DNA from: a virus
Lineage: Duplodnaviria > Caudoviricetes
DNA length: 60,044 bases
IMG/VR virus record: IMGVR_UViG_3300044675_001003
Location: 1 to 60,044 of that record
Reading direction: 5' to 3' (one strand)
The notes beneath the pieces were generated by a model. It did no database searches, was not told the origin of the DNA, and was given only the letters and a program-made list of their open reading frames with translations. Made by a program: the position numbers and the translations under genes. This document shows, one piece after another, positions 11,301-25,101 of the stretch (its first letter is position 1; each line of letters begins with the position of its first letter).

Positions 11301-14300
11301 CTGCAGCCCGTGGTCAAAGGGACATCTTTGCCGAGGCGCCAGCAGAAACTCCAGTAGAAACTCCAAAGGCACAGACAGAGCAAGAACGCACTGTTACTCT
11401 AACAAAGAAAGAGTTCCGCGAAGACAAAGAAACTCGCGGTAAGAGCGATCACCCAGCGCTGAAGATGGTGTTTAAGGGTGAGGCGCCAAAGAGCTTAATT
11501 GCCAAGTACGGCGAGAAAGATGTGCGCTTCCTTGGCCGTCTGTTTGATATTGACGTTAAAGACAAGTTCAATGTTGCCAAGAAACTGATTGCAATTGACA
11601 GCGGTCTGAGCTTGATTCGCGGCAAAGATAAAGCTTACTTTGACAAGATGAACAAAGCCCAACTGGGTGAGTTCCTTGAGGCTGTAGGCCAGTCTGCTTA
11701 CGGTCAGAAGTACCAACTGGTAGAGCGCCTGCTGAAGCACGAAGGCAACGTGATGGGCAAGTTCAATGACAACTTGCAAGACCTGAAGCACAGGGCCGCT
11801 GTCCTAAATGAAGCCCGCGCAGGCAAGCCCATCAGCGAAGAGGTGCTGAAAGACTACCCAGATGTGGCTGCATATTCGTTGCCACGCGACTCTGAAGGCT
11901 ATAAAGCTGCCATCCGCACTTTGGCAGTCAGAGCGTTGCCAACGCTTGGCATGGACACACCAGCCACTATTGCGGCCTATCGCGAAGACGCTAAGACTAC
12001 AAAGGATCCTCTTGAGAAAAATGTAGCCAACGACATTGCTGACTACATGGAGAGCTACTACAAGTCTCAGCAAGAGAAAAGCAATCAAACCATGGCCAAG
12101 CTTGGCAGTGGCACTGGCCCAACAATGGGCGAAATGATTGCCGAGAACAAGCGCGTTAAGGCGCAGCTGGCTGCACTTGAGAAGGGCGAAGAAGCGCCCG
12201 TAGACAATAAAAAAGAGATTGCTGACCTACGCGCAGAGCAGAAGGTTTTAATACGTCAAATTATTAAAGCCGGCTTGCAGGAAACCCCAGAGCAAGAAGC
12301 TCGCATGGGCGAGATTAGCAAACGTCTTGATGAGCTTGAAGGTAGGGCGCCAGTTAAGCAAGCTGAGAAGCCAGAAGTTAAACAACGAAGCGTTGAAGAA
12401 ATCAGGAAAGAGCTTGAGGATTTGCAAGATCAAGCCTCAGAAGAATTTAACAAGGACAAGAAAAAGAAGCTTGCTTCCGACATCTATAAGCTGCAAGCCG
12501 AGTTGACTGCTGCCGAAGGTAGGGCTGCAAGAGCAGCTGCAGAAGGCAAATCGCAAAGCAAAAATAAACTAGATGACCCGGCTGAGTTTGAAAAAGCTTT
12601 GAAGGGTTTTGAGGATGCTTATGGCGATCCAGAAAGCGCCCTGTCCGAGCTTAATTATTACAAAAATACTGTTGATAGCTTGATCAAAAAAGGCGGCTCA
12701 ATTTACCGAGTGCTTTTTGTAAAGTCTATCAATGACATTGATGAAAAAAATCTTGGTAACTATTGGACTGTCCATTCATCAAACATTGATAGGTACGGTG
12801 ACAACCTTTCAGACAACGCTGACGAAGGTACGCAGCTGTATGTCGTTCAAGCCAAGGTTCCGCCTAACTCTATATCAAACCAAGGGGTTGATATTAGCGG
12901 GAACCCAGATGAAGAAGAAGTAAACATCGTTGCAAACAAGGACGATATTACTTATACGGTTCATGAGTACAGTAATAAACGGATGGGCCCAGCAATTCGC
13001 GAGCTTGGCAAAACAGAGGCTGAAACCGAAGCGGCAGAAGAGGCAGCAGAAGAAGCCATACGAAACAAGGCAGAGGCTGAAATTGATGAAGGCCCAATTG
13101 GTCAAGCAATTGCCAAGATTGAAAACGGCGACATTGAAACCAAGGCGCAGATACGAAGTCTTATTGTAAAACTAGAACGTGATGGCACCCTTGATGATGT
13201 AGAAGATGTCCGAGAAGGTCTTAGCGATAGAGAGCAAGATGCAAGCGAAGTTCTGGATACCCTGAGTGGTTTGCTAGATGACGCTAGAGATAACGCCATT
13301 GATGAGCGTTTTGACGAATTGCTTGAGGAAAGGGCGCAAGATGAGGTGCTGCCCGCCGAAGAGCCACAGATTGCCGGCCAGGTTGGCTTTGAGCCTTACA
13401 CAATCGAAGGTGACTTCACTGAAGTAGCTGAAGAGCAGCAGCGCTTGATGTTGGAAGACCAGACCGAGAACCTGTCTGATGATCAAGTCTCCACCCTCGA
13501 GAAACACTACGGCGCCACGATTGATTCGGACGAGTTCTTTACCAAGCTGCGTGAGGATGTCACTAACTTTATCGTTAAGGGCGCCACAGCTGTTAACGGC
13601 AAGATCCGCGCGATCATTCGCCAGTTGGCCAATGGTGTTCTGGCTGTAGGTATTGCGTTCAACCCGCAATATATGTCTCAGCCGATAAACGTGTTTATGC
13701 CTGTTGACAACGTGCGTACAGAAGAAGTTCTAGCCCAAGTGCCTGATGCTGCTACAGACAAGATGTCTGAGCCAGCCAAGCGCGCTTTTGCTGTGATCTA
13801 CCCAGCTCTCCAAGAACAGATGGTGGCCAAAGACAAGCTGTTCATCATGGCCGACAAGCCAAGTGGCCGGGTGTTTATATTTAACCCTGATGGTTCTTTA
13901 TTGCTTGAGAAGAAATCCCTGTTTGGCTTGGCCAAGGGTGATCTCTATGTGGGTGACAACGAAAAGCCCCAGAACCGCATTACCCCAGCTGGTCTGTTTG
14001 ACCTGAAGTTTGTTGACGCTGCAAAGGGTGCTGCTGAGAAGCGTACCGCTGGTGACTATGACACTGGTACCGTGCTGGCCATCAACGATCCAGAAGGCAC
14101 AATCACGATCATGCACTCTGTGTGGCTGAAAGAGAAAGACGCCGCACAACGTGCAGCTGCATTGCGTAACGATTCTCCTGCAGATTCACGCTACTCATTT
14201 GGCTGTATCAATGTAGATGCACCGACCTACAAGTTCTTGGTGGACAACCACGCCCAGCAGATGGATGGCGCTGCGCTATTCATCGTGCCAGAGGCTGGTG

Positions 14301-17300
14301 TAGACGTCATGTCGTTCATTACTGGTAAGGGTGCCATGTCAGAAGACTTGGCCCGTATCAAGATTAAGCCAGTCACTAAGGAAGTCAGAACGCCTCAGAG
14401 ACAGGCCACTCAGGCAGAGGCCAAGACCAAGACGCCCGGCAGGGAGCAGCAGTTCTTTAGTCTTGAGAAGCAGACTGGGACGGCGGCGTTTAAGAAGTTC
14501 TTTGGTAACAGTAAGGTTGTCGATGAAAATGGCAACCCGATGATTGTGTACCACGGCACCATTGTTCGACCAGATACCGAAGATGTGAAGGGTATGGGGG
14601 ACATCATGGCGTTTGACCGGATGTTTACTACTCAGTTCCGCAAGCCATCTATTGATACCGTTGGCAGCTTCTTTAGCACCAACCCCGGTGAAGGTGGCGC
14701 CCAGATGTACTCCGGTACTGGCGAAGGCGCTGCGGTCTATCCCGTGTACTTGTCTATCAAGAACCCATACACCACAACATTTGAAACAATGTTAAGACGC
14801 GCCCGCATGATGGAAAACGGCGTGGACGATGGCCGCAAGATTGGTGCAAAAGAAGTTGCAGCCCTGCGTAAGTTCTTAAAGGAAACCGGCAAAGATGGCA
14901 TCCACATCAAGGCCGATCCAAAGAGCGCTGAGTTTAAAGATCAGGACGTCTGGATTGCTTTAGAGCCAGAGCAAATCAAATCAGCCACAGGTAACCGTGG
15001 TACGTTTGATGAGTCTGCCAACATTTCTATGAGCATTGAAGGCAAGAAACTGCCTCCAGGACGTTCGCCAGAGCTGGCCGCTGCAGCCCGCCAAGTCAAA
15101 GAAGGCAAGATGACGGCAGCCGAGTTTGACGAGATGGTCAACAAGTACAGACCTATTCGTCCATACGAAGCACCATTGAAGCCCGCAACAACGGCCCAGA
15201 TGGTTGATGCTTTAAGCTCCGAGAAAAAAGATAAGGTTAACCCTGACATTCCAGAAGGCACCCGTGTTGGCCTGCGCTTAGACATCCCAGCGTTCAATCG
15301 CAAGGGCGTCTATGTTGTGACCATCCACGAAAAAGGAAACGCCAGCGGCCCCGGTAAAGCTATTGGCTATGACAGCGTAGCGGTAATTAACAATGTTAAT
15401 TTCGGTACTGGCAGCCAGAAGAAAGCTTTGAACATTGCTACTGGTGAAGCCAAGGATGCGCTGCAGACCATGGAAGGTGAGTTCGTTAAGAGTGATCCGG
15501 ACGCCGTTTATGCGGCTGCATTGAAGGCCATGGATGACCCATCTTGGACTCAGATTGGTGTAGACCCTACTCGCCACGCTTACTTCTTTGATCGCAATAC
15601 AACCCAGCCGGTTATAGCTGCCGAGCAAGTTATCCAGATTGGCAACACAGTATTAGCCAAGAACGTAACCTACGGCAAGAAAGAAAGCTTCCTCTACAAC
15701 CTTGGCGATGACATGGTCAGGCTTGTTAATCAGATAGCTGACAGCATTGCTGAAAACGAAAAGAAGCGTTCACCATCCTTTAAACGCACAGCCAAGACTC
15801 TTACAAGGCAGCGTGGCGAAGGAAAGATTACTGATGAGGAATACCTCGACCGCATGAATGCCGCCATTGAGGAGGACGAAGAAAGCCGCCTCGATAAGGG
15901 AGTGCCGCAGCGCGTTCGTGGTGCTGACTTTATTCGTGAGAAGTTGCTTAATGCTAAACGCAGGAAAATGATTACTGCAGAAGGCGTTGATTTAGCCGAG
16001 TGGTTTATCCAGCAAAACCCTGCTTTGGTTGACGATCTTGGCATCAGCGTTGTGGGCAAAGGACTGGCCGGCGTTGGCGGTTTCTATAACTCTGACGCTC
16101 GCATCATTAACCTGATCAAAGATGCCGGATCAAGCCAGACGGCTACGCACGAAATCTTGCACCACCTTGAGCGCATGATGCCGACCGACATTCAGAATGC
16201 CATTCGCAAGGCATGGCTGACCCAGCTGCTGAAGGCTAACAAGGCCGCTAAAGACCCAGCCCAGCGTTTGTACTTCATGGCGCTGCTGGATGCCCACATT
16301 GGCAACAACAACCATGATCGCTTGGAAATACCAAAAGACTTAGAGAAGATTTACAAATCAGCCGTAAAGCAAATGCAGTTTGCTAGTGCGCTTGCTGGAG
16401 ATCCTTTTGGTTCGTCAAAGAGTAGCGATTTAGCAAAAAATCTTTTGCTGTATTCACCTACCGTAACGAACGACCTTTACGAGTACTTTGATCCGTCAGA
16501 GTTCTGGGCGGTCAACGGATCTGACATTGTTCAAGCCCGCTACGAGGCTGTTAAGGGCGGCGTGTTGGCCAAGCTTAAAAACTGGCTGCGTGAGTTTACC
16601 CAGAAGATCAAATCATTGCTGGGCCTGAAGTCTGACGCATCCATCATTCGTGCATTGGATAGCTTGGCCAAGTCTGATGGTAAGTTTGTGACCAGAAAAA
16701 TGCTGGGCACCGGCGAGTACCGAAGCATTGAGCGCCGCAACTACGAAGGTGGTGAAGCGCCAGAGCCGGACATGGAAATCCCAGAGATGTCGTTCATGGA
16801 CGATGTGATCTACAAGTACGGCGATAAGCTAATCGACACCAAGCGTTTGATTCAATCTATTCAGAGCACCGGCAGAAAGATTGATGAGCGTTTTGACGCC
16901 TACATGAAGGAAGAGAACTACCATGGCCGTCTGGCCAAGCGTACTAAGAACTTCCTTAATGAAGAAATGCGTCCAGTGCTTGAGGAAATGCAAGAGAAAA
17001 ACGTGACGCTGGATGAGCTCGAAACGTTCTTGCTCAACCGCCACGCCAAAGAAGCCAACGCATACATTGCTAAGATCAACCCAGTAGGTTTTCCAGAGGC
17101 TGGCTCCAGCGTTTCAGATGAGGCTGCCGATAAGTACATGGCGGAGTTGACGCCAGAGAAGCGCAAAGATCTTATGGCCCTTGCAGCCAAGGTCGATGCT
17201 ATTGTCAAAGAGACTCAGCGCGTTTTGGTGGCCAATGGCCTTGAGACTCAGGACACAATTGACGAGTGGAATAAGACATACAAGAACTATGTTCCGCTAC

Positions 17301-19450
17301 AGCGTGACAACCTTGACTTTGTCCACACTGGCCGTGGCGTGATGGGTGGTTTTGGTACCCGTGGTTCAGCTTCTAAGCGCCGTGTTGGTTCTGATAAGCC
17401 AGTCATTGACATCTTTGCCAACATTGCTATGCAGCGTGAGCGCGCTTTGCGTAGGTCTGAGCAGGCCCGTGTTGGCCGCGCTTTGTATGGCATGGCTATC
17501 AAGCATCCAAATCCCGGCTTTTGGTTGGCCATCAATCCTGATGCCATCAAGGACAAGGAAAAGCTGGAAGCCGAGCTTATCTCTCTGGGCCTTACGCCTG
17601 AAGATGCTCGGAGCATTATCCAAGAGCCGCGCCAGCCAATGTTTGATAAGAAGACTGGTCAGGTTAAGTATCAGGTTAACCCCCTGCTGCGCGACAGCCC
17701 TAACGTCTTCCCTATCCGCATTAACGGCGAAGACCGCTTTATCTTCTTTAATCCGAATGACCCCCGTGCATTGCGTATGGTTGAGTCAATAAGGAACCTT
17801 GACACCGAAAGACTGGGCGATGCAATTGGTATGGCCAGCATGGTCACCCGCTGGTTTGCTTCTGTTAATACCCAGTACAACATCGTGTTCGGTGCTGTTA
17901 ACTTCTTGCGCGACCTTAGTGCTGCATCCCTTAACTTGTCAACAACAGAGATTGCTGGCAAGGAAAAGAAAGTGCGGGCCAACGTGCTGCCGGCCCTGCG
18001 CGCAATCTATCGTGATCTGCGCGGTAAAGGTGCGACTACCGAAACGATGGCAGAAATGCAAAATTGGTTTGAGCGTTTCCAGCTGGCCGGCGGTCAGACT
18101 GGTTACCAGAATCAGTTTGCAGAAACAAAACGTAAAGGCAATGTTGTTGAGCAAGAGCTGCGGCGCCTCAACCGTGGCAACGTCAAGAAGTCTGTTGATG
18201 CGGTATTTGACTGGCTGTCAGACTACAACGATGCCATCGAGAATTCGATTCGTTTGTCTGCGTTTAAGGTTGCTGTTGAAAGCGGTTTGAGCGAAGACAA
18301 GGCGGCCAGCATTGCCAAGAACCTGACTGTTAACTTTAACCGTAAGGGTGCTAGGACTGGCTTTATCTCCGCCTTGTATGCGTTCTTTAACGCTGCTGTC
18401 CAAGGTAGTACTCGCATGGTGGAAACTCTGCGCGGGCCCATGGGTAAGAAGATCATCTTTGGCGGTATGCTCCTTGGATCTATGCAGGCCATTGCTTTGG
18501 CCATGGCTGGGTTTGATGATGATGAGCCACCAGAGTTTGTCAAAGACAAAAATCTGATCATTCCAATCCCATTTACAGACAAAAAGTATTTGTCTATTCC
18601 AATGCCATTGGGTTTCAATATGTTCCCCGGCTTTGGTCGCCTTGCCATGGAGACATTGCTCATTGAAACCGGCATGATCAGAAGCCGCAAAGGCCCGGGC
18701 GATAAGGTCATGAGCGCGGTGTCTTTGGTGTTTGATGCGTTCAACCCGCTGGGTGGTTCTGGCAATCCTTTGTTGATGGCTGTGCCCACAATTGGCGATC
18801 CGTTTGCTGCGATCTACAGCAACAAAGATTCCTTTGGACGCCCAATCTACAAGGAAGACAGAGGCACAGCGCCTACGCCCGGTTACGAGCGTTCGCGTGA
18901 GAATGCCAGCATCTTGAGTAAGAAGCTTGCCGAAGCAATTAACTATGTAACTTCGCCAGCAGGCACCAAGCACACTAAAGGATTCTTTAGTCCTACTGCT
19001 GATGAAATTGACTACTTCATTGGTCAGATCACCGGTGGTGTTGGTCGAGAAATCATGAAAGTTGGTGAGTTTGCTAAGTCAAAGGCGGTCACTCAAGAAG
19101 AGGTACCAGCGTACAAGCTGCCGGTGGTTGGCCGCTTCTACGGCGAGGCCGAGTCACCAGCTGCTACGCGATCAAGGTTTTATGAGAATGTAACCGTGAT
19201 GGCCAAGCATGAGTATGAGATCAAGGGCCTGCGTAAGGATAGGATAAGCCCAGCTGAATACGTCAAAGCCAACCCAGAGGCCAGGTTGTGGCAGCGGGCT
19301 AACAATGTTGAGAATCAGATCGTCAAGCTAAATAAAGAGAAGAAAGCGCTGCTTGAGAGGGATGCCCCAAGGGAGGCGGTCAAGCGCAAGGAAGATGAAA
19401 TCTTAAAGAAGATGACTGAGTTCAACAATCAGGTTAGACGGGGCCAATAA
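8372..19450 (+). CDS. Giant polyvalent ejected protein (3692 aa): SAP-like motif, three ART-like domains, YkuD L,D-transpeptidase, zincin metallopeptidase, C-terminal LPD38-like region
   Basis: ART-PolyVal signature FKKFFGNSKVVDENGNPMIVYHGT...VYPVYLSIKNPY...QIKSATGNRGTFD; HSVW...SFGCINV; HEILHH; NLTVNFNRKG...YAFFNAAVQG. Confidence 0.8.
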   Translation: MQRAVNPQTGEVLFLVDNQWISPAQKAKNEKGDTAYLVGNKWEVVEAPVTEQPSGIASVAPRAANTMTADEYLQQVAAREARGYDRTLGGSLIDTGVTFLKGAIGLPEAFVGLADIPTAGYAGKLLEQAGYKPKEAKEILDTYLSEAQQAANRKLKQAEGFGGAVAAALQNPSTIATAVGESIPQMLGGAAVARGLMKAAPGLAPYLAGAAGEGLLGAGAAAEQIRQQSEDKLLSGKQIVSALGSGAGTAAFGAAGGKLAAKFGLDDIDTLLAAGAGKGGVKSVKDFAIKATASGITEGLFEEMPQSAQEQMWMNYATDKPLFQGVPEAAGMGFVTGAAMGVGATGLGRRKQTEQGLPSVAPEAELTPTPTTPPEAGITSLMPQEPTPPAPPAGPAEAVQAPGSEAMDTQAMLEELINSVNYPQEKAPEVVAEKQLTQEEIDKQDQQDRFLAEMQDLQDDVSDRDDKYFETSPAKPESVKLYRGVPKGQEGRETVGGALFMSPDRDIAEQYAGPGGKVTEESRTFDNILDAPTWANAKQKLGLPQSATMADLVNAAREAGHDGVTFKTTNGQEYIAINKAPKAPTTTLETREEYPALSKTEVEELGLAPKPKVEKPKEPKIDYLNHPDNVGSDASSKREFDNKGKLQVAPQNIADGGTPFKSRAAADVARKNYPDMRVLPTADKKGFILAPKTPKQIEADKAKAKRLGLPMTTTKGTPMAAHQFITSEGGITKDAMKDLGMDENVRSGNRSLFTDTGMSVEQAYMKLQEAGYLEEGATQNDARNLITESVKKPKYRQQDTEEMTKRAQQADYEDYLKAEEEASLYSPVDEEMGYEMGDFDGTGYESASPEVQAEVRALLAQADALGINTESIKEEIFYETENQSVQAYYKAFKSALEDAITAGRQDRIEDTGQPGGEGAGFELTAPTADEIRTKQAETERRAKEEERANKAAEDKARADEQAAEFTLTGSDRAADVAAARGQRDIFAEAPAETPVETPKAQTEQERTVTLTKKEFREDKETRGKSDHPALKMVFKGEAPKSLIAKYGEKDVRFLGRLFDIDVKDKFNVAKKLIAIDSGLSLIRGKDKAYFDKMNKAQLGEFLEAVGQSAYGQKYQLVERLLKHEGNVMGKFNDNLQDLKHRAAVLNEARAGKPISEEVLKDYPDVAAYSLPRDSEGYKAAIRTLAVRALPTLGMDTPATIAAYREDAKTTKDPLEKNVANDIADYMESYYKSQQEKSNQTMAKLGSGTGPTMGEMIAENKRVKAQLAALEKGEEAPVDNKKEIADLRAEQKVLIRQIIKAGLQETPEQEARMGEISKRLDELEGRAPVKQAEKPEVKQRSVEEIRKELEDLQDQASEEFNKDKKKKLASDIYKLQAELTAAEGRAARAAAEGKSQSKNKLDDPAEFEKALKGFEDAYGDPESALSELNYYKNTVDSLIKKGGSIYRVLFVKSINDIDEKNLGNYWTVHSSNIDRYGDNLSDNADEGTQLYVVQAKVPPNSISNQGVDISGNPDEEEVNIVANKDDITYTVHEYSNKRMGPAIRELGKTEAETEAAEEAAEEAIRNKAEAEIDEGPIGQAIAKIENGDIETKAQIRSLIVKLERDGTLDDVEDVREGLSDREQDASEVLDTLSGLLDDARDNAIDERFDELLEERAQDEVLPAEEPQIAGQVGFEPYTIEGDFTEVAEEQQRLMLEDQTENLSDDQVSTLEKHYGATIDSDEFFTKLREDVTNFIVKGATAVNGKIRAIIRQLANGVLAVGIAFNPQYMSQPINVFMPVDNVRTEEVLAQVPDAATDKMSEPAKRAFAVIYPALQEQMVAKDKLFIMADKPSGRVFIFNPDGSLLLEKKSLFGLAKGDLYVGDNEKPQNRITPAGLFDLKFVDAAKGAAEKRTAGDYDTGTVLAINDPEGTITIMHSVWLKEKDAAQRAAALRNDSPADSRYSFGCINVDAPTYKFLVDNHAQQMDGAALFIVPEAGVDVMSFITGKGAMSEDLARIKIKPVTKEVRTPQRQATQAEAKTKTPGREQQFFSLEKQTGTAAFKKFFGNSKVVDENGNPMIVYHGTIVRPDTEDVKGMGDIMAFDRMFTTQFRKPSIDTVGSFFSTNPGEGGAQMYSGTGEGAAVYPVYLSIKNPYTTTFETMLRRARMMENGVDDGRKIGAKEVAALRKFLKETGKDGIHIKADPKSAEFKDQDVWIALEPEQIKSATGNRGTFDESANISMSIEGKKLPPGRSPELAAAARQVKEGKMTAAEFDEMVNKYRPIRPYEAPLKPATTAQMVDALSSEKKDKVNPDIPEGTRVGLRLDIPAFNRKGVYVVTIHEKGNASGPGKAIGYDSVAVINNVNFGTGSQKKALNIATGEAKDALQTMEGEFVKSDPDAVYAAALKAMDDPSWTQIGVDPTRHAYFFDRNTTQPVIAAEQVIQIGNTVLAKNVTYGKKESFLYNLGDDMVRLVNQIADSIAENEKKRSPSFKRTAKTLTRQRGEGKITDEEYLDRMNAAIEEDEESRLDKGVPQRVRGADFIREKLLNAKRRKMITAEGVDLAEWFIQQNPALVDDLGISVVGKGLAGVGGFYNSDARIINLIKDAGSSQTATHEILHHLERMMPTDIQNAIRKAWLTQLLKANKAAKDPAQRLYFMALLDAHIGNNNHDRLEIPKDLEKIYKSAVKQMQFASALAGDPFGSSKSSDLAKNLLLYSPTVTNDLYEYFDPSEFWAVNGSDIVQARYEAVKGGVLAKLKNWLREFTQKIKSLLGLKSDASIIRALDSLAKSDGKFVTRKMLGTGEYRSIERRNYEGGEAPEPDMEIPEMSFMDDVIYKYGDKLIDTKRLIQSIQSTGRKIDERFDAYMKEENYHGRLAKRTKNFLNEEMRPVLEEMQEKNVTLDELETFLLNRHAKEANAYIAKINPVGFPEAGSSVSDEAADKYMAELTPEKRKDLMALAAKVDAIVKETQRVLVANGLETQDTIDEWNKTYKNYVPLQRDNLDFVHTGRGVMGGFGTRGSASKRRVGSDKPVIDIFANIAMQRERALRRSEQARVGRALYGMAIKHPNPGFWLAINPDAIKDKEKLEAELISLGLTPEDARSIIQEPRQPMFDKKTGQVKYQVNPLLRDSPNVFPIRINGEDRFIFFNPNDPRALRMVESIRNLDTERLGDAIGMASMVTRWFASVNTQYNIVFGAVNFLRDLSAASLNLSTTEIAGKEKKVRANVLPALRAIYRDLRGKGATTETMAEMQNWFERFQLAGGQTGYQNQFAETKRKGNVVEQELRRLNRGNVKKSVDAVFDWLSDYNDAIENSIRLSAFKVAVESGLSEDKAASIAKNLTVNFNRKGARTGFISALYAFFNAAVQGSTRMVETLRGPMGKKIIFGGMLLGSMQAIALAMAGFDDDEPPEFVKDKNLIIPIPFTDKKYLSIPMPLGFNMFPGFGRLAMETLLIETGMIRSRKGPGDKVMSAVSLVFDAFNPLGGSGNPLLMAVPTIGDPFAAIYSNKDSFGRPIYKEDRGTAPTPGYERSRENASILSKKLAEAINYVTSPAGTKHTKGFFSPTADEIDYFIGQITGGVGREIMKVGEFAKSKAVTQEEVPAYKLPVVGRFYGEAESPAATRSRFYENVTVMAKHEYEIKGLRKDRISPAEYVKANPEARLWQRANNVENQIVKLNKEKKALLERDAPREAVKRKEDEILKKMTEFNNQVRRGQ
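9618..9636. promoter_or_regulatory. Palindrome TAATTAACAGTGTTAATTA (dispersed motif, copy 1)
   Basis: Perfect 19-bp inverted repeat inside the giant CDS; the core ATTAACASTGTTAAT recurs elsewhere. Confidence 0.6.
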
Positions 19451-19736
19451 TCCCCTGCTCAAAGAATAGGCCCAGTGTCTTGCGATGTGCATCCTCCCAC
19501 ATCTCAACACGCTGGGCCTTATCCATCTTAGACCCCTGATCTAACTCCATGTGGCACCGATAGCATAAGGACGCTATGCGGTAATCGTGAGCCTTGAGGC
19601 CCCGGCCCTTGCCGTCCCGTAGTTGGTTGCTGTGGGCGGCTACCACTGTTCCGTCACTCACCCCGCAGTGCTGGCACGGCAGGAGCCTTGCGGCTTTTAG
19701 TAGTTTTTCGTTTCGATACATTTGGTTTACAGTCAT
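19434..19736 (-). CDS. DUF1364/YbcO-like Zn-binding putative nuclease
   Basis: AARLLPCQHC...VVAAHSN...GKGRGLKAHD...LCYRCHMELD; start may be 19721. Confidence 0.7.
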   Translation of the reverse strand: MTVNQMYRNEKLLKAARLLPCQHCGVSDGTVVAAHSNQLRDGKGRGLKAHDYRIASLCYRCHMELDQGSKMDKAQRVEMWEDAHRKTLGLFFEQGIIGPV

Positions 19737-19848
19737 AGCACACCCAGCGGTTGCCTTTTGGATCTACAAGTTTGCCGTGGTCTAAGGGTTTGGAATGCTC
19801 ACAGGTAGCGCAGTAGCGTTTACCGTAGATCCTCATGTTTTCTGACAT
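19654..19848 (-). CDS. Small Zn-finger protein
   Basis: CATC...WVCYDC; resembles 28240..28428. Confidence 0.5.
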   Translation of the reverse strand: MSENMRIYGKRYCATCEHSKPLDHGKLVDPKGNRWVCYDCKPNVSKRKTTKSRKAPAVPALRGE

Positions 19849-20029
19849 TGCGTTTGCCTTTCTTGATTGCGGCCAGTCCTTCTTCGGGCTCTTTTCTAGC
19901 TTCCATCCATTGATCGGCTATTTCGTATGCTGCCTCGGCTAGGTTGTCACCTTCCCTGTTACGGATGATGAGCCCGGCCAAAGCAAACATAGACGCCAGA
20001 TCTCGCAGATTGGTGTCGTGTTCAGTCAT
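19820..20029 (-). CDS. Small phage protein (LRD..A..A...AY..AD family)
   Basis: LRDLASMFALAGL...AYEIADQWMEAR; distant paralogue of 26190..26408. Confidence 0.6.
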   Translation of the reverse strand: MTEHDTNLRDLASMFALAGLIIRNREGDNLAEAAYEIADQWMEARKEPEEGLAAIKKGKRNVRKHEDLR

Positions 20030-20253
20030 TAGTGAACCTCTTTATCGGTATGTTCCTTGCGGATGTTTCTAAGCGTGTCGCGGAAAGCAGCCGTTGCCTG
20101 CTCGTCATCGTCCATGCCCAGCTCTACCAGCAACTCACAAAGAAGCTTACTCAATGAAATGACTGCAACGATTGGATCTTCGCATTCTGTGTTCATCAGG
20201 GCAGAGCTCAGAGCTTTGTCCATGTCCATTACTTGGTCAGTGATGTCTTTCAT
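20029..20253 (-). CDS. Hypothetical protein
   Basis: Translationally coupled to both neighbours; GGAG RBS. Confidence 0.55.
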   Translation of the reverse strand: MKDITDQVMDMDKALSSALMNTECEDPIVAVISLSKLLCELLVELGMDDDEQATAAFRDTLRNIRKEHTDKEVH

Positions 20254-20525
20254 CGCATCTCCAGTTCTTTGATCTGATCGGCCAGCACATCGGCCAAGTA
20301 CTTACCGCGAACGGCAATGTGCTCGATCTCTTTGATGGTGTCGATCTCTTTTATACAGTCTTTGAGCGCCTTGTTGTACCCGGACTTAAAAGTATCGTCA
20401 CCATCAACGATCATGCAAATAGCGTCCCGCACCATGCTGGATGCTTTACGCTGCTTGGCTAGTTCCTTGATCTTGTCGTGATACTCCACTGGTAAATAGA
20501 CGCTGTAAGGGATTAGTTTCTTCAT
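20250..20525 (-). CDS. Ribbon-helix-helix DNA-binding protein
   Basis: KKLIPYSVYLPVEYHDKIKELAKQRKASSMVRDAI has the beta-alpha-alpha RHH pattern; GGAGG RBS. Confidence 0.6.
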   Translation of the reverse strand: MKKLIPYSVYLPVEYHDKIKELAKQRKASSMVRDAICMIVDGDDTFKSGYNKALKDCIKEIDTIKEIEHIAVRGKYLADVLADQIKELEMR

Positions 20526-20944
20526 GCTTTCCTCCAAGCTTCGAAGCTGGTTCGCAATTGATTGAATAAATGGCGGGCTTCTTCGTTGGTCTTAAGCTCT
20601 TTGCGGGACTCTATGTCCAAGTAGGATGCGATCCAACTGGCACAAGCCTTCTCGTTCTTCTCCATTAGCCACTCTTTCTGGTGCAGCCAGTCCCAAAACT
20701 CTGGATCACGGCACAGAATGCCGGCCAGCTTCACCGCATGATCCCCAGGAAACTCGTTCTCTCGGTTCATCGGTTGCTCATCATCACCCAGTCGCACCAT
20801 CACAACAATGTAGCGCGAGCCTACAAAGTCGCGCATAAGGTCGTTGTGCAGCTCGTCAGGGTGAACAGCCAAAGACAGCATATAGCCGTCCTTGGATTGC
20901 TTAAGCCCTGTTTTTATCGCTTCGAACTGTATTGGATCTGGCAA
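20522..20944 (-). CDS. Conserved hypothetical phage protein
   Basis: AGILCRDPEFWDWL...IESRKEL motif typical of phage recombination blocks. Confidence 0.6.
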   Translation of the reverse strand: MPDPIQFEAIKTGLKQSKDGYMLSLAVHPDELHNDLMRDFVGSRYIVVMVRLGDDEQPMNRENEFPGDHAVKLAGILCRDPEFWDWLHQKEWLMEKNEKACASWIASYLDIESRKELKTNEEARHLFNQLRTSFEAWRKA

Positions 20945-21134
20945 TTTGTAACTCCAAGTATTTGATGACGCCTACAGACATGGTCAGCTGCTCTTCCAGC
21001 TTGCCAACCTGTTCCTCAAAGTTGTCAATGATTGCGCGAAACTTAGCCTCATCTTCAATGCATGAATTAAGTGCGTTATTCAGGCTGTTGCAAACCTTCT
21101 CCCAGTCCTGAATGGTTTTTGGTTTCTTAGTCAT
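20901..21134 (-). CDS. Small coiled-coil protein
   Basis: MTKKPKTIQDWEKVC...; start reassigned to overlap the upstream stop. Confidence 0.5.
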   Translation of the reverse strand: MTKKPKTIQDWEKVCNSLNNALNSCIEDEAKFRAIIDNFEEQVGKLEEQLTMSVGVIKYLELQIARSNTVRSDKNRA

Positions 21135-21390
21135 CCCATGGATCCTTCGCGCTAGAGGCCGCTGGGGCTTCCTTCTTAAAGGTATCAAGCTTGAGGGTAA
21201 TCTTGCGTTTGCCGTCTGTATGCTTACCCAGCCAAGCGCCAAGCTTAATAACAATGTGATCTGTGTCTGCGTTTTCAAGCATATCCCGAACTAAGTCGAG
21301 CTCAAGCTTGATGTCGCCTTTCATGTCTGGTTGTGTGTCTGTCTTCTTGTAGTCGTTAGTCCACAAAGTACCGCGATTTGGATAGTCCAT
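21127..21390 (-). CDS. DUF736-like putative ssDNA-binding protein
   Basis: GTLWTN.YKK....PDMKG...GAW, acidic tail KDPWDD; follows ERF. Confidence 0.55.
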   Translation of the reverse strand: MDYPNRGTLWTNDYKKTDTQPDMKGDIKLELDLVRDMLENADTDHIVIKLGAWLGKHTDGKRKITLKLDTFKKEAPAASSAKDPWDD

Positions 21391-21400
21391 TAGTTACTCC

Positions 21401-22108
21401 TTAAAAAAATGATTTCTTAGCTGCTGAAAAGTTGTCAATGACGTCTGCATAAACAGATGGATTCAAAGCCTTAAGCTTGTCGTACATAGGCTTGTTCACT
21501 TGGAACATCTGTTTGAGCTGCTCGGCACTGGTGGCCATGCTGACCTTTAAGCTGTTGGCTGCAACCATCATGTCAACCCATGCTTCTGAACTTTCAGGGG
21601 CGTCAATGATGATCGTCCAAGCATCTGGTTCAACGTGCTGGGGTGGAATAGGGTCTGGGCGCTGTTTAACGGGCTTTTGGGCGGGTTTTGCAGCTGGCGC
21701 AGGGGTTTGTGTGGCCACAGGCTTTGGAGCTTCTACAGGAGGCGCGGAATCTACTGCATCCCCTTCCACAAGCTCCATGGCTGCCATCCATAAATAACGG
21801 CGTTGGTAGCTCAAAGTGGCGCCCAAATTTTGGATGGGGTGTGCACCTTTGAGGTTGGCCTCGGCCATTGGGCTGGTGATCACAATGACTGTGCCGTCAT
21901 CTACATCGGTGATGCACAGCTGGGCATACTCGGTGTTAAACGTCACGACACCGCACAGGCCAAGGTCGTTGAAGATGGTCTGAACATGGGGAATGAAGTC
22001 ACCCAGCTCGAAGTATGAGTAGCCTGCGAATTTATTCTGGCCAGACTTCTTCATGTCTACCGACAGAAGCTTGACCCTCGCTTGCATAAGTTTCTTATGA
22101 ACTGACAT
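21401..22108 (-). CDS. erf: ERF-family ssDNA annealing protein
   Basis: KKSGQNKFAGYSYFELGD...IQNLGATLSYQRRYLW...GDAVD. Confidence 0.85.
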   Translation of the reverse strand: MSVHKKLMQARVKLLSVDMKKSGQNKFAGYSYFELGDFIPHVQTIFNDLGLCGVVTFNTEYAQLCITDVDDGTVIVITSPMAEANLKGAHPIQNLGATLSYQRRYLWMAAMELVEGDAVDSAPPVEAPKPVATQTPAPAAKPAQKPVKQRPDPIPPQHVEPDAWTIIIDAPESSEAWVDMMVAANSLKVSMATSAEQLKQMFQVNKPMYDKLKALNPSVYADVIDNFSAAKKSFF

Positions 22109-22988
22109 TGTTTTCCTTTGTTGATAAATACTCTTTGTATTGGTTACAAAACCTACTGACAGAGCAAAACTCAGCGCATCGCGTTCTCTCTCCCTGCCTG
22201 ACTATGATTTCGTAATCCTTTCCATACTCGGCCACCTTGGCTTGAGCTTCCTCATCGGTATTGCAAACGTTTCTTGCTTTGACATTACCAATCTTTTTCA
22301 CTGCGTATGTTGTAGGCTTCTCCCAAGTCTGGTCGGGCGTACAAAACGGCAGCTCATCCCCTGTCTCCAAGTCAAATAATGCGTTGGAGTGTTCTTTGAT
22401 TCGTTCCTGAATGAATGTTTCGCGCTCTTCCATCGGCCATAAGCGAATGGGGATCACTTTGATCGGTGCGTCAGGGTAGTTGGCCTTCATGGCTGCATCA
22501 CGGCGTGACCAGTCTCTGATGATAGCTACGATCTCAAGCTTGGAAACCTTGGTCTGCTTAACTTTCTCCACAAGCCAAGCGTAGATGTTGAGCTGGTATT
22601 CCCAATCAATCTTCTCATTCATCACAGACCATGCGCCTGTGGTCTTGTAGTCATTGATTGTTAGAGTGCCGTCTTCATTGACGATCTGCAGATCAATAGC
22701 TCCAGAGATAGACCAGCCGTCAATCTTTGTGTGGAGGCGCTCTTCAATCAGGTGGTTCTCATCGGCACCATGCTCAAGAACGCCGTGAATAGCCGTCCCA
22801 AAGATAGACCAGACCATCTCTGTAACGTCAGTCTCGATCTTGTCTTCGTGTAGTTTACGCAGCTGGACAATGCGCGGTGAGTTAATTAACTCTGTTGCAG
22901 AGATGTTGGCCTTACCCTTGGAGTAGGTAGGCCGCTTCATGATATTCACGAAGGTCTGAGGTAGGTTGTATTTGTTTGTGATAATCAT
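22095..22988 (-). CDS. PD-(D/E)XK recombination exonuclease (Cas4-like C-terminal Cys cluster)
   Basis: GTAIHGVLE, ISGAIDL, DYKTT, QLNIYAWL, RCAEFCSVSRFC. Confidence 0.85.
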   Translation of the reverse strand: MIITNKYNLPQTFVNIMKRPTYSKGKANISATELINSPRIVQLRKLHEDKIETDVTEMVWSIFGTAIHGVLEHGADENHLIEERLHTKIDGWSISGAIDLQIVNEDGTLTINDYKTTGAWSVMNEKIDWEYQLNIYAWLVEKVKQTKVSKLEIVAIIRDWSRRDAAMKANYPDAPIKVIPIRLWPMEERETFIQERIKEHSNALFDLETGDELPFCTPDQTWEKPTTYAVKKIGNVKARNVCNTDEEAQAKVAEYGKDYEIIVRQGERTRCAEFCSVSRFCNQYKEYLSTKENNVSS

Positions 22989-23470
22989 GGCCGGCTCCTA
23001 TCTGCAATTTGTTGTAGCTCGCGTTTCTCAATGGTTAGCATTCCAGCCAGCTTTGAGATCTTTGCTTGGGCATCAGCATTCTTTTTGCGGCCTTCGTCAG
23101 TCAGCAGCTCGGTCTTGGTAAAGCTCACGCCCATGGCCATGCGCTTCATCTCTCGGCCAATAGCCTTTACCCCAACATCAACTGCGTGTTGGGTTTGGGA
23201 TTCGGGCTCAATGATGATGTAGTTGCCGGCGTGATCGCTGACCATCAACATACAGTGTGCTGTAAGCAGAATGTCTTTGATCTCTGTGATGCAGCGCAGC
23301 ACCTCAAGGTCATACCGGCGTACATCGTTAATGTCCACTGGCTTTGGAACCTCGCACAATTCAGAAATGTAACTGCGCTTAAGTACGCTGCCGTATGTCA
23401 GGCCGCTGTCCAACAGGGTTCTGACCGCTTGCTTCCAAGCTGGGAATAGTTTTGGGTTTTCGTCACTCAT
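22985..23470 (-). CDS. Accessory protein of the RAMP/pentamer-array locus (predicted winged helix + coiled coil)
   Basis: ATGA-coupled to the RAMP-like gene; YGSVL...L..IKDILL...GNYIIIEP pattern followed by a helical C-terminus. Confidence 0.55.
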   Translation of the reverse strand: MSDENPKLFPAWKQAVRTLLDSGLTYGSVLKRSYISELCEVPKPVDINDVRRYDLEVLRCITEIKDILLTAHCMLMVSDHAGNYIIIEPESQTQHAVDVGVKAIGREMKRMAMGVSFTKTELLTDEGRKKNADAQAKISKLAGMLTIEKRELQQIADRSRP

Positions 23471-24036
23471 GCGAACTCCACATTAAAACGTCCAAAACGT
23501 GGGCGGTAGTCACCCAAACCAATCAAGGCGCCAGCATCAACCAAAGCCTTTTTAACTTCGTTAACATTGACTACATCCTCATTCACCATCACAGTGGCAG
23601 AGAGTGACCAGTTGCGAAAGATGGGGCGGTATCGCATGATCTTGGCCATGCCAACCTTAACGCCACGGGCATCCACATTCTTTGGGTTTTCCCAAAGTTT
23701 CTCTGGAGTTGTGTTCTTAAACCCGTCAAGAGGAAGCTCGTCTTCCAAGACCTGGACGCCTTGCTTAAACTTAACACCCAGCTTCTGGAGCTTGGCTGCA
23801 GCAATCAAGCATGAGTCAAGGTTCTGTGCTGGGATAAAGAATCCAGTGTCTTCGTTCCAGTAGCAGCCGCCAATGAATTCACTCTTGGCAATGGCAATAA
23901 AGTCATCGTCAGTTTTCTTGCGTTTGCCAGTCATCTCTTTATGAGCCTTGGCCAGCGGGTCTAGCGGGTTTGCAAAACGATCAGAGTGCATGAGTAAAGC
24001 AGCTGATCCCGTGATTTTTACAGATATGGATTTCAT
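23467..24036 (-). CDS. RAMP/Cas7-like RNA-binding protein (Vipr-like)
   Basis: N-terminal strand ISVKITGSAALLMH, IPAQNLDSCL helix (RAMP IP-x-S-like), thumb D.R.V.V...IMRYRPIF, C-terminal Gly-rich loop GALIGLGDYRPRFGRF; AGGA RBS; downstream of the pentamer array. Confidence 0.75.
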   Translation of the reverse strand: MKSISVKITGSAALLMHSDRFANPLDPLAKAHKEMTGKRKKTDDDFIAIAKSEFIGGCYWNEDTGFFIPAQNLDSCLIAAAKLQKLGVKFKQGVQVLEDELPLDGFKNTTPEKLWENPKNVDARGVKVGMAKIMRYRPIFRNWSLSATVMVNEDVVNVNEVKKALVDAGALIGLGDYRPRFGRFNVEFA

Positions 24037-24067
24037 TTTTAGTTCCTAAGTTGGTTGATGCACAGTT

Positions 24068-24540
24068 TGCATCGACCATGAAACTGTTGCCAATTTCATA
24101 GCCGCTACATTAGCCCTTGACTCGCCGAACCATTCCTTACCAAGCCCGTCCCGACCCGGCCATGCCTCGCCTTTCCCGGCCAGACCTCTCCGTACCACTA
24201 ACACTCGAAGTGGTACTGTTACCAATACCCTATCGACTGTTGCCAGTTCCATGCCCGACCCGTCCTTACCTTTCTACGCCGTGCCACGCCGGGCCCAACC
24301 GCCCATGCCAAACACTCGAAGGAACACTCTTTAGAATGTTCTATCGGCTGTTGTCAGCCCCTGCCAATCCCCGCCGTGCGATGCAACACCCAACCAGCGC
24401 CGAACCGTGCCGTACCAGACCATGCGATACCCAAACGAAACACTCGAAGGATGACTGTTACCAATCACCTATCGGCTGTTAAGCTCCTTGTTATGCCTTG
24501 CCCGACCGAGCCTGACCGCTCCGCGCCGAACCAAACCACG
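24068..24540 (-). ncRNA. Array of four GG(T/C/A)-NN pentamer tracts, each followed by a conserved hairpin (candidate guide RNAs)
   Basis: Tracts at 24122-24196 (15 in-phase units), 24246-24309, 24356-24435 and 24493-24537; near-identical 42-nt hairpins at 24200-24241, 24311-24352 and 24439-24480; degenerate fourth hairpin at about 24068-24109. Confidence 0.85.
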
Positions 24541-24578
24541 TTGTATAAATTCAATTGATCAGTTACAATCGGCAACAC

Positions 24579-24608
24579 ATTGTACCCACATACTTTCATG
24601 TCTTGCAA
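24579..24608 (-). promoter_or_regulatory. sigma70-type promoter driving the array and RAMP operon
   Basis: Minus strand TTGCAA-18 nt-TACAAT. Confidence 0.65.
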
Positions 24609-24627
24609 TACCTTTTGAAAGAATTTT

Positions 24628-25089
24628 ATGATTAAGATTGGAATAGATCCTGGCCTGTCTGGCGCCATCGTTGTTTTTAACAATGACATCCCAGTGATAT
24701 GGGAAAGGATGCCCACTATGAAAATAGGTTCGGCCAATCGTGTAAATGCTTCTGCGTTGGCTGCAATTATTTGGCCGTTAGCTTCTTCGGGTAAAGAAGT
24801 CAAGGCGTATGTCGAGCTAGTGAGTAGTATGCCCGGCCAAGGCGTGGCTTCGATGTTCTCATTCGGCCACTCAGCTGGTGTGATCCAAGGTGTGCTCGGT
24901 GCGCATGAAGTCCCTGTAATGATGGTTACCCCTCAATCATGGAAGAAGCGCGCGGGGCTGGTTGGCAAAGACAAGGATGCTTCTAGGACGTTGGCCATCC
25001 GGATGTGGCCGTTCTGGAGGGAGCTTGATAAAAAGGGAGCCGGCCAAGCGTATGCAGATGCAGCATTCATTGCACTTTACGGAGATTGA
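24628..25089 (+). CDS. RuvC-like Holliday junction resolvase
   Basis: IGIDPGLSGAI, YVELVSSMPGQGVASMFSFG, PQSWKK, ADAAFIA. Confidence 0.85.
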   Translation: MIKIGIDPGLSGAIVVFNNDIPVIWERMPTMKIGSANRVNASALAAIIWPLASSGKEVKAYVELVSSMPGQGVASMFSFGHSAGVIQGVLGAHEVPVMMVTPQSWKKRAGLVGKDKDASRTLAIRMWPFWRELDKKGAGQAYADAAFIALYGD

Positions 25090-25097
25090 TGTAGAAT
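25070..25097 (+). promoter_or_regulatory. Putative promoter for the small RNA
   Basis: TTGCAC-16 nt-TAGAAT. Confidence 0.45.
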
Positions 25098-25101
25098 AAA
25101 T

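What the first reader, a model, noticed from the sequence alone, without database searches (positions are those of the whole stretch)
24068..24480. Hairpins between the tracts show covariation and GNRA-type loops, fixing the - strand as the functional RNA
As minus-strand RNA, the three 42-nt units share outer arms AACAG(U/C)CGAUAG...CUUCGAGUGUU. Their inner stems change compensatorily: GGUA-UUG[GUAA]CAG-UACC, AACA-UUC[UAAA]GAG-UGUU and GUGA-UUG[GUAA]CAG-UCAU. A degenerate fourth, AUGAAA-UUG[GCAA]CAG-UUUCAU, sits just before the RBS. The G-U pairs and GNRA loops work only on the - strand. Inference: these are processing or capping handles analogous to CRISPR repeats.
Basis: partly seen in the sequence, partly recalled or inferred. 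Interest (0 to 1): 0.75.

Follow-up and report, generated by a model that had tools for sequence, protein, structure and literature searches.

The report
VIPR guide-RNA tail hairpins
The hairpins are the structured 3' tails that end each guide RNA in a phage-borne VIPR system, a recently described CRISPR-related RNA-guided DNA-silencing system, so the feature is real but already explained in kind.

Summary
On the minus strand, three 42-nt hairpin units and a fourth variant alternate with four G-rich tracts that have a strict 5-nt period (GG-H-NN; 11, 15, 13 and 17 units). They lie directly upstream of a 189-aa gene. That protein matches the solved "SUSP1 Vipr protein" (E 1e-58) and folds like Cas7/Csm3. 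The locus is therefore a VIPR system, described in 2026 preprints. The tracts are vrRNA guides and the hairpins are the vrRNA 3' tails.

In 52 distinct homologous tails, aligned without using any structure, 96.2% of cells pair (84.6% in shuffles; 0 of 500 shuffles reach it). Four inner-stem pairs each show 3-5 pair types. A U·G wobble is kept in 51 of 52, which fixes the strand.

Three corrections:
- Only 3 of the 4 window loops are GNRA, and 32 of 52 in relatives.
- The "degenerate" fourth hairpin is a conserved terminal-tail variant (24 distinct sequences, three covarying helices).
- The 5' arm AACAG can also form a small hairpin with the end of the tract. This hairpin is conserved across clades and excludes the closing stem.

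The capping role is inferred from SUSP1 cryo-EM. Processing is untested, and I found no targets. This is a new member of a known kind.

The parts
24579..24608 (-). Promoter-like site (TTGCAA, 18 nt, TACAAT) upstream of the array
   Evidence: 9 of 12 matches. The count of such sites in the region is not above shuffles. The -10-like GGTACAAT/GGTAGAAT recurs at the same place in L007, L015, L017 and L025. Its function is inferred.
24483..24537 (-). vrRNA1 guide tract: 11 pentamers (10 GG-H-NN plus one degenerate AACAA)
   Evidence: Parsed; period-5 signal.
24439..24482 (-).
   Evidence: (52 bits).
24356..24431 (-). vrRNA2 guide tract: 15 pentamers with a 1-nt insertion and 3 degenerate units
24311..24355 (-). 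Tail 2 (inner stem GAACAUUC[UAAA]GAGUGUUC). The small hairpin P1, GCUG-ACAA-CAGC, at 24347-24358 overlaps the last pentamer.
24246..24309 (-). vrRNA3 guide tract: 13 units, one of them 4 nt long
24200..24245 (-). Tail 3 (inner stem GGUAUUG[GUAA]CAGUACC). P1, ACUG-GCAA-CAGU, lies at 24236-24247.
24112..24196 (-). vrRNA4 guide tract: 17 pentamers, one degenerate
24057..24111 (-). Terminal tail variant with three helices. P1' is GCUA-AUG-UAGC at 24104-24114. A 13-bp hairpin with a GCAA loop lies at 24074-24103. A 6-bp hairpin, GAUGCA-AACUG-UGCAUC, lies at 24057-24073.
   Evidence: -28.8 kcal/mol, z -3.98; 24 distinct homologues, 94.9% of cells paired against 80.7% shuffled, and 11 of 23 pairs changed on both sides.
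24044..24047 (-). AGGA ribosome-binding site of vipr
   Evidence: Read directly. An AGGA/AAGGA occurs at the same place in relatives.
23467..24036 (-). vipr: 189-aa RAMP (Cas7-like) protein
   Evidence: Profile against PDB 36pp_D 'SUSP1 Vipr protein', E 1e-58; single sequence, E 1.3e-46. AlphaFold2 pLDDT 91.7. Foldseek top hits are Csm3/Cas7 of types III and VII. phrog_4652.
22985..23470 (-). vap candidate: 161-aa accessory protein
   Evidence: phrog_5926. Homologous to the gene directly after the vipr homologue in LESphi2 (E 4e-24), Medea1 (E 1e-12) and wV8 (E 1e-7). No Pfam or PDB sequence match.

Best explanation
The region 24057-24537 (minus strand) is a four-unit vrRNA array of a VIPR system (Viral Interference Programmable Repeat). 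It sits upstream of its own vipr and vap genes and is probably co-transcribed with them.

Each unit has two parts:
- a guide tract of 11-17 GG-H-NN pentamers, which Vipr protomers coat as a helical filament, leaving the NN dinucleotides free to read double-stranded DNA by the published one-base-skip rule;
- a structured 3' tail, which is the hairpin of this finding.

The tail marks the 3' end of each guide. It most likely caps the Vipr filament and makes the RNA competent for complex formation, as the pseudoknot tail does in phage SUSP1.

**Shown here:**
- homology of the protein;
- the period-5 tracts;
- the strand;
- the tail's secondary structure, by covariation;
- co-occurrence of all of these across 77 of 80 related loci.

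**Taken from the literature on a homologue:** filament formation, the DNA-reading rule, 3' capping and silencing of competing mobile elements.

**Inferred:** co-transcription from one promoter, and excision of the four units.
For: **Protein.**
- The A1 profile hits the solved SUSP1 Vipr chain at E 1e-58 over residues 1-188; the single sequence gives 1.3e-46.
- In that alignment the thumb segment (M-R-Y-R-P-I-F against M-S-Y-R-P-I-F) and the G-loop segment (G-D-Y-R-P-R-F-G-R-F against G-D-W-R-P-R-F-G-R-F) are conserved.
- The confident model (pLDDT 91.7) matches Csm3/Cas7.

**Tracts.**
- GG autocorrelation is 42, 38 and 33 at lags 5, 10 and 15, against 2 at lags 2 and 3.
- G power at period 5 is 3.17, against a shuffle mean of 0.22 and a maximum of 1.98 in 2000 shuffles.
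- Position 3 of the pentamer is C/T in about 77-80% and A in about 20%. Positions 4-5 are near uniform.
- No such tract occurs anywhere else in the 60-kb record on either strand.

**Association.** Tracts lie on the gene strand beside the homologue in 77 of 80 IMG/VR loci and in 3 of 3 named phages.

**Tails.** Covariation as. A sequence-only model finds 74 tails in 84 sources, all next to tracts.

**Literature.**
- vrRNA is 9-16 YNNGG repeats followed by a conserved structured tail of about 40 nt. The locus is typically vipr plus vap.
- The tail caps the 3' end in cryo-EM (passages).
- A vrRNA that shares the consensus tail is described as competent for Vipr complex formation (passages).
Against: - No RNA ends could be mapped. 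The RNA-library runs that hold relatives are kept only as contigs with small shares.
- No target was found for any of the four guides.
- The tail here is not the SUSP1 pseudoknot. The tail model found nothing in the wV8, LESphi2 or Medea1 loci, so the capping role is an extrapolation across clades.
- For the P. fulva system, the cryo-EM preprint states that no marker like the 3' pseudoknot was available (passage).
- One tract has 17 units, against the 9-16 reported.
- A occupies the 'Y' position in about a fifth of the units.
They may already describe tails of this clade, or contradict details given here.
Confidence: 0.87

Rival explanations
1. The hairpins are only cleavage signals for a host RNase (RNase III or RNase E type) or for Vipr/Vap. 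They separate the units of a precursor, are trimmed off, and play no part in the mature complex.
For: - Four units follow one promoter-like site, with no terminator-like site on the minus strand between 24579 and 24036. Some form of excision is therefore needed.
- Other VIPR types separate their units with hammerhead ribozymes.
- The text I read gives no processing mechanism for type II arrays ('processing' occurs only for sonication; no occurrence).
Against: - In SUSP1 the tail stays on the mature vrRNA and is seen at the end of the filament.
- Sharing the tail is described as what makes a solo vrRNA competent for complex formation.
- Conservation here covers the loop-proximal A-U, U·G and U-A pairs and the CGAUAG/CUUCGAG internal loops. 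That points to recognition of a retained shape.
Confidence: 0.07
2. The repeats act as DNA, for example as operators, iterons or an origin in the divergent region between the recombination operon and the RuvC-like gene.
For: - The region lies between divergent genes.
- The adjacent genes are recombination genes: PD-(D/E)XK exonuclease, Erf and RuvC-like.
Against: - Compensatory changes keep the pairing, with G·U pairs in 98 of 771 cells. This is an RNA signature and is strand-specific.
- In other phages the same tract-plus-tail arrays travel with vipr into unrelated neighbourhoods: next to tail genes in Medea1, next to cI/cro in LESphi2, and downstream of vap in L042-L083.
Confidence: 0.02
3. 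The hairpins are transcription attenuators or terminators that set the ratio of guide RNAs to vipr mRNA.
For: - In the clade with downstream arrays, the last unit ends in a hairpin followed by a U run.
- The terminal tail here sits just before the ribosome-binding site.
Against: - No U run follows any of the four window tails.
- The scan finds no terminator-like site on the minus strand within the array.
- vipr has no promoter-like site of its own between the array and its start.
Confidence: 0.03

Closest known systems
SUSP1 (coliphage) type II VIPR: vrRNA with a 3' pseudoknot tail
   Same: - The Vipr protein is homologous (E 1e-58).
- The locus is vipr plus a small accessory gene.
- The guides are GG-pyrimidine-NN pentamers, each followed by a conserved structured tail of about 40 nt.
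- The arrays hold several units.
- In both, the first helix of the tail uses the last G-rich bases of the tract. For the SUSP1-like phage wV8 this is my own reading of the sequence.
   Different: - The tail fold differs. Here it is a 4-bp tetraloop hairpin plus a long bipartite hairpin. No pseudoknot was detected, and the tail model finds no hit in wV8.
- Homologues in Felixounavirus-type phages are only about 41% identical.
- The whole array lies upstream of vipr. In SUSP1, one vrRNA is upstream and three are downstream.
- A is tolerated at the pyrimidine position in about 20% of units.
- The inner stem differs from tail to tail within an array, whereas the SUSP1 tail is called invariable.
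Pseudomonas-type VIPR loci (P. fulva prophage clade of the preprints; here phages Medea1 and LESphi2 and loci L042-L083)
   Same: - These are closer in protein sequence: 58.5% and 46.6% identity.
- The tails start with the same GGGCUG-NNNN-CAGC hairpin, followed by a variable hairpin.
- The vap homologue is shared.
   Different: - Those tails carry a third hairpin (GAUGCG-loop-GCAUC type), which the three internal window tails lack. Only the window's terminal tail has it.
- Most of those arrays lie downstream of vap.
- I did not fetch the P. fulva locus itself.
Class 1 CRISPR crRNA with a repeat-derived handle (Cas7 backbone, Cas6-type hairpin)
   Same: - A RAMP/Cas7-fold protein coats a guide at a fixed period.
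- A conserved structured element bounds each variable guide.
- Units are arranged in a tandem array.
   Different: - The period is 5 nt, with a fixed GG in the guide itself.
- The guide reads DNA non-contiguously.
- The 'repeats' are only 65-76% identical to each other.
- No Cas1, Cas2 or Cas6 match was found among the 10 neighbouring ORFs scanned.
- The system is encoded by a phage.
Ribozyme-interspersed VIPR arrays (types I and V of the preprint)
   Same: Structured RNA elements sit between successive guide tracts and define the unit boundaries.
   Different: Those elements are hammerhead ribozymes that cleave themselves. No Rfam family, hammerhead included, reaches its threshold anywhere in the window.

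Membership tests
VIPR system | A Vipr protein: a minimal RAMP homologous to a characterised Vipr | tested here: met
   PDB 36pp_D 'SUSP1 Vipr protein': E 1e-58 with the profile and 1.3e-46 with the single sequence over residues 1-188. Foldseek top hits are Csm3/Cas7.
VIPR system | Thumb and glycine-rich loop residues that hold the GG of each repeat | tested here: met
   The thumb R-Y-R and G-loop G-D-Y-R-P-R-F-G-R-F segments align with the SUSP1 chain. They are invariant or nearly so in 36 homologues. The preprint names R136, Y176 and R177 (passage). I could not match its numbering exactly.
VIPR system | A small accessory gene (vap) next to vipr | tested here: met
   The 161-aa ORF overlaps the vipr stop codon. 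It is homologous to the gene in the same position in LESphi2, Medea1 and wV8. Identity with SUSP1 vap1 itself was not tested.
VIPR system | vrRNA guide of about 9-16 tandem YNNGG (GGY/NN) units on the vipr strand | tested here: met
   The tracts hold 11, 15, 13 and 17 units. The period-5 signal lies far above shuffles. Position 3 is C/T in 77%, and positions 4-5 are near uniform. One tract exceeds 16 units.
VIPR system | A conserved structured 3' tail after each tract | tested here: met
   (covariation in 52 internal and 24 terminal tails).
VIPR system | Discrete ~100-nt RNAs that co-purify with Vipr | not testable with these tools
   Only contigs of RNA-library runs with small shares were available, and they carry no end information.
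VIPR system | Natural DNA targets that match the NN code with one skipped base | tested here: inconclusive
   The local scan of 491,974 bases gives scores no higher than guides with shuffled unit order. Four exact 10-unit patterns gave 0 hits in IMG/VR. The genome collection gave no answer. Mismatch-tolerant searching of host pangenomes was not possible.
SUSP1-clade vrRNA tail | An H-type pseudoknot tail with the SUSP1 consensus sequence | tested here: not met
   The window tails fold as nested hairpins. The model built from them finds nothing in the wV8 locus L003.
CRISPR array | Near-identical direct repeats separated by unique spacers, with cas adaptation or processing genes nearby | tested here: not met
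   The repeat copies are 65-76% identical to the reference copy. The intervening sequence is period-5 GG tracts of 55-85 nt. There is no Cas1, Cas2 or Cas6 Pfam match in the 10 neighbouring ORFs at E up to 0.01. The rest of the window was not scanned for cas genes.
Any Rfam family | A covariance-model match at the gathering score | tested here: not met
   0 matches in the whole window on both strands.

The most novel reading that the evidence does not exclude
In this clade the tail may be a two-state switch and not a static cap.

- **State 1:** they pair with the last bases of the guide tract, forming hairpin P1 (CUG-NNAA-CAG). Pair 6-17 is AU 31, GC 12, GU 8, other 1. Pair 9-14 is GC 39, AU 10, other 3.
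- **State 2:** they pair with the 3' end GAGUG, forming the closing stem. Pair 14-51 is CG 40, UG 7, UA 5, other 0. An A at column 51 occurs only together with a U at column 14.

When Vipr protomers take up the last pentamer, P1 would open and the closing stem would form. Filament completion would then be coupled to capping, or to release of the unit from the precursor.

In addition, the inner stem differs between the tails of one array in 21 of 22 arrays, yet recurs at the same array position in different phages. It may keep neighbouring units from mispairing or recombining, or it may address each unit separately.
Probability: 0.2. Interest if true: 0.55.

Novelty: new member of a known kind. 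Interest (0 to 1): 0.35.

Why it matters
VIPR was described only in 2026 preprints, as a phage-borne, CRISPR-related way of reading DNA with a gapped RNA code. Its experimental work rests on SUSP1 and one Pseudomonas prophage.

This locus adds the following:
- A well-populated third clade: about 40 related contigs with arrays upstream of vipr.
- A tail with a different fold, supported by far more covariation than the five-sequence alignment used for SUSP1 in the preprint's methods.
- A conserved terminal-tail variant that links the array to the vipr message.

These results give concrete structural constraints for two open questions: what Vipr recognises at the end of a guide, and how arrays without ribozymes are cut into units. 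In the text I could read, the second question is still open.

For the scan itself, the result is that a reader working from sequence alone rediscovered the system's RNA handle.

Tried and rejected
- **Rfam and tRNA.** Rfam at gathering scores gave 0 matches. The tRNA/tmRNA search gave none.
- **DNA-level similarity.** A search of 23400-25100 against phage records found only short matches in the flanking genes, none in the array.
- **Literature.** A search for 'GGNNN' with 'phage' gave nothing relevant. The identity of the system came from the PDB sequence search.
- **Earlier readings dropped.** I considered a TRAP-like or CsrA-like protein-titrating RNA, a G-quadruplex array, a Rho-loading site on the plus strand, N4-type hairpin promoters and a ToxI-like antitoxin repeat. 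I dropped all of them once the protein was identified and the tracts were seen to follow the gene in 77 of 80 loci.
- **Target search.** Self and related loci gave scores at the level of guides with shuffled unit order. Exact 10-unit patterns for vrRNA1, vrRNA3 and both halves of vrRNA4 gave 0 hits in IMG/VR. The genome collection gave no answer twice. Natural targets therefore remain unknown, and this says nothing against targeting.
- **Public runs.** 9 runs hold small shares of the region. I laid four of them at 85% likeness. All are contigs, mostly of relatives, and give no ends and no strand, so there is no expression evidence either way.

Full report
**What is in the sequence.**
Read on the minus strand, the 591-nt region between the RuvC-like gene (24628-25089, plus strand) and the first gene of a minus-strand operon (start at 24036) has the following order:
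- a promoter-like site (24608-24579);
- a leader of about 40 nt;
- four G-rich tracts, each followed by a hairpin;
- a ribosome-binding site.

They share AACAG(C/U)CGAUAG and CUUCGAGUGUU and differ in the inner stem. The fourth hairpin lies at 24074-24103.

The tracts have a strict 5-nt period. GG-to-GG autocorrelation is 42, 38 and 33 at lags 5, 10 and 15, against 2 at lags 2 and 3. The spectral power of G at period 5 is 3.17, against a mean of 0.22 and a maximum of 1.98 in 2000 shuffles. The tracts parse into 11, 15, 13 and 17 pentamers of the form GG-H-NN. No other such tract exists in the 60,044-bp record on either strand.

**What the neighbours are.**
The record is a whole virus genome with terminase, portal and helicase genes.
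- The gene after the array encodes a 189-aa protein. It has no Pfam match and belongs to phrog_4652.
- The next gene encodes a 161-aa protein of phrog_5926.
- These are followed by a PD-(D/E)XK exonuclease, Erf and an HNH protein.

A profile of the 189-aa protein and 35 homologues matches one solved chain, 36pp_D, named 'SUSP1 Vipr protein', at E 1e-58 over its whole length. The single sequence gives 1.3e-46. The AlphaFold2 model is confident (pLDDT 91.7). Its best Foldseek matches are Csm3/Cas7 subunits of type III and type VII CRISPR complexes.

**Identification.**
Three 2026 preprints describe VIPR systems.
- For 10.64898/2026.04.26.720920 I read the Results, methods sections 25-27, and some further passages.
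- For 10.64898/2026.04.26.720927 and 10.64898/2026.10.15.759431 I saw the listing abstract and passages only.
- A fourth preprint, 10.64898/2026.10.21.760802, recovers VIPR arrays by their 5-nt period (passages only).

According to the first preprint:
- VIPR loci are mostly viral and consist of vipr, an accessory vap gene and vrRNAs.
- A vrRNA has 9-16 YNNGG repeats followed by a conserved structured 3' 'tail'.
- The NN dinucleotides read double-stranded DNA with one skipped base per unit.
- The complex silences competing phages and satellites.
- The authors compare the tail to the repeat handle of a crRNA.

[quoted passage not shown] The third preprint treats the shared tail as what makes a vrRNA competent for complex formation. 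Every sequence-level feature fits the window. The hairpins of the finding are the vrRNA tails.

**Association across relatives.**
tblastn finds the protein in 130 phage records. In LESphi2, Medea1 and wV8 the homologue is followed by a homologue of the 161-aa protein and is flanked by period-5 GG tracts plus hairpins.

Of 80 IMG/VR loci fetched with the protein alignment, 77 carry tracts of at least 7 phased GG on the strand of the gene. L052, L061 and L073 carry none. Tracts on the opposite strand occur only in L002, L033 and L045. In L033 they belong to a second, inverted array with its own tails.

Close relatives (70-100% protein identity) carry the array upstream, as the window does. The 55-60% clade mostly carries it downstream of vap. 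In the close clade, position 3 of 778 pentamers is C/T in 80% and A in 20%, and positions 4 and 5 are near uniform.

**Test of the hairpin.**
I avoided fitting the alignment to the structure.
- I built a sequence-only model from the three window units with flanks.
- I searched the window and 83 loci with it and found 74 matches at E up to 0.01.
- I extended the matches to full width, removed L004 (identical to the window) and duplicates, and set aside 7 rows that lack the type-1 3' arm (3 from L041 and 4 terminal-type rows).
- I aligned the remaining 52 distinct tails with MAFFT.

- It pairs in 96.2% of 771 cells, against 84.6% in shuffles (0 of 500 shuffles reach it) and at most 45.8% when partners are slid.
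- Pairs 24-41, 25-40, 26-39 and 30-35 have 3, 5, 4 and 4 pair types. None of these cells is unpaired.
- Pair 20-45 switches from A-U to G-C in 2 rows.
- The loop-proximal A-U, U·G and U-A pairs are invariant, or nearly so.
- The U·G wobble is present in 51 of 52 rows. G·U pairs make up 98 of 771 cells (my count). On the other strand these would be mismatches.
- RNAalifold predicts the same hairpin on its own, without pairs 12-53, 13-52 and 23-42.

The rows are related to each other, so the shuffle counts are not probabilities. The variety of pair types and the slid controls are the stronger evidence.

1. **GNRA loops are frequent but not required.** They occur in 3 of 4 window loops and in 32 of 52 loops in relatives.

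2. **The fourth hairpin is a conserved terminal tail, not a decayed copy.** 24 distinct sequences share it. It has three helices: a 4-bp hairpin, a 13-bp hairpin and a 6-bp hairpin. 94.9% of cells pair, against 80.7% shuffled, and 11 of 23 pairs changed on both sides. It ends 9 nt before the AGGA of vipr.

3. **The 5' arm AACAG has a second possible partner.** The last bases of the tract form CUG-NNAA-CAG (P1). Pair 6-17 is AU 31, GC 12, GU 8, other 1. Pair 9-14 is GC 39, AU 10, other 3. P1 is also present in the terminal tail (100% paired). By reading, it is present in Medea1, LESphi2 and the downstream-array clade as GGGCUG-NNNN-CAGC.
   - P1 and the closing stem use the same CA bases, so they cannot coexist.
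   - Pair 14-51 of the closing stem also covaries (CG 40, UG 7, UA 5, none unpaired). An A at column 51 occurs only with a U at column 14.
   - Naked-RNA folding prefers the closing stem.
   - I cannot decide between them. A switch tied to Vipr binding of the last pentamer is my most novel reading.

4. **The inner stems differ within an array.** They are all different in 21 of 22 arrays with more than one hit. This count includes the window's twin L004 and several near-identical loci. The same variant recurs at the same array position in different phages.

**Mechanism, with its status.**
- **Shown here:** the protein family, the guide-like tracts, the strand, the tail structure and their co-occurrence.
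- **From the literature on homologues:** Vipr protomers polymerise along the GGY/NN tract, the NN bases read DNA, the tail caps the 3' end and transcription of the target is silenced.
- **Inferred:**
  - One promoter-like site, positionally conserved in relatives, drives the array and vipr-vap as one transcript. I infer this because there is no terminator-like site on the minus strand between them.
  - The units of 99, 121, 110 and 140 nt must then be cut out. How that happens is not stated in the text I read.

**What remains open.**
- No targets were found, and the larger collection did not answer.
- No RNA ends could be obtained.
- Supplements that may list this clade, its type and its tails were closed.

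**Verdict.**
The kind of element has been in print since April 2026. This is a new member, with a distinct tail fold, of a known kind.

Noticed in passing
window 24246-24309 (-); L017 about 2370-2430; L005 about 2213-2270: The guide tract of vrRNA3 recurs almost unchanged in other phages, but joined to a different tail. In L017 it precedes the terminal tail. Guide and tail modules therefore seem to be reshuffled between array positions.
   Followed up: partly
window 24483-24537 (-); L007, L015, L020, L025 (first or third tract): The first guide tract is largely conserved among related phages while other guides differ. This suggests a shared target.
   Followed up: no
L033 850-1330 (-) and 2000-2470 (+): One contig carries two arrays in inverted orientation, both with tails matching the window's model.
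   Followed up: no
window 19434-24036 (-) and 24628-25089 (+): The VIPR cassette heads a recombination operon (PD-(D/E)XK exonuclease 22095-22988, Erf 21401-22108, HNH 19434-19736) and faces a RuvC-like resolvase. In other phages the cassette sits in quite different neighbourhoods, so it behaves as a mobile module.
   Followed up: partly
window 8372-19450 (+): A single 3692-aa ORF matches only PHROG families of unknown function (phrog_14770, E 1.5e-172, over its last 880 residues). My first guess of an N4-type virion RNA polymerase was not tested.
   Followed up: no
L043, L047, L053, L067 (about 3900-4060): In the clade with arrays downstream of vap, the last unit ends with GGGCCG-NAAA-CGGC and a hairpin followed by a U run. 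This looks like an intrinsic terminator that closes the operon.
   Followed up: no
window 24236-24247 and 24213-24228 (-), and the same in relatives: The motif UGG-NAA-CAGU occurs twice in most tails: once in P1 and once at the tip of the inner hairpin. This hints at a duplicated recognition element.
   Followed up: no
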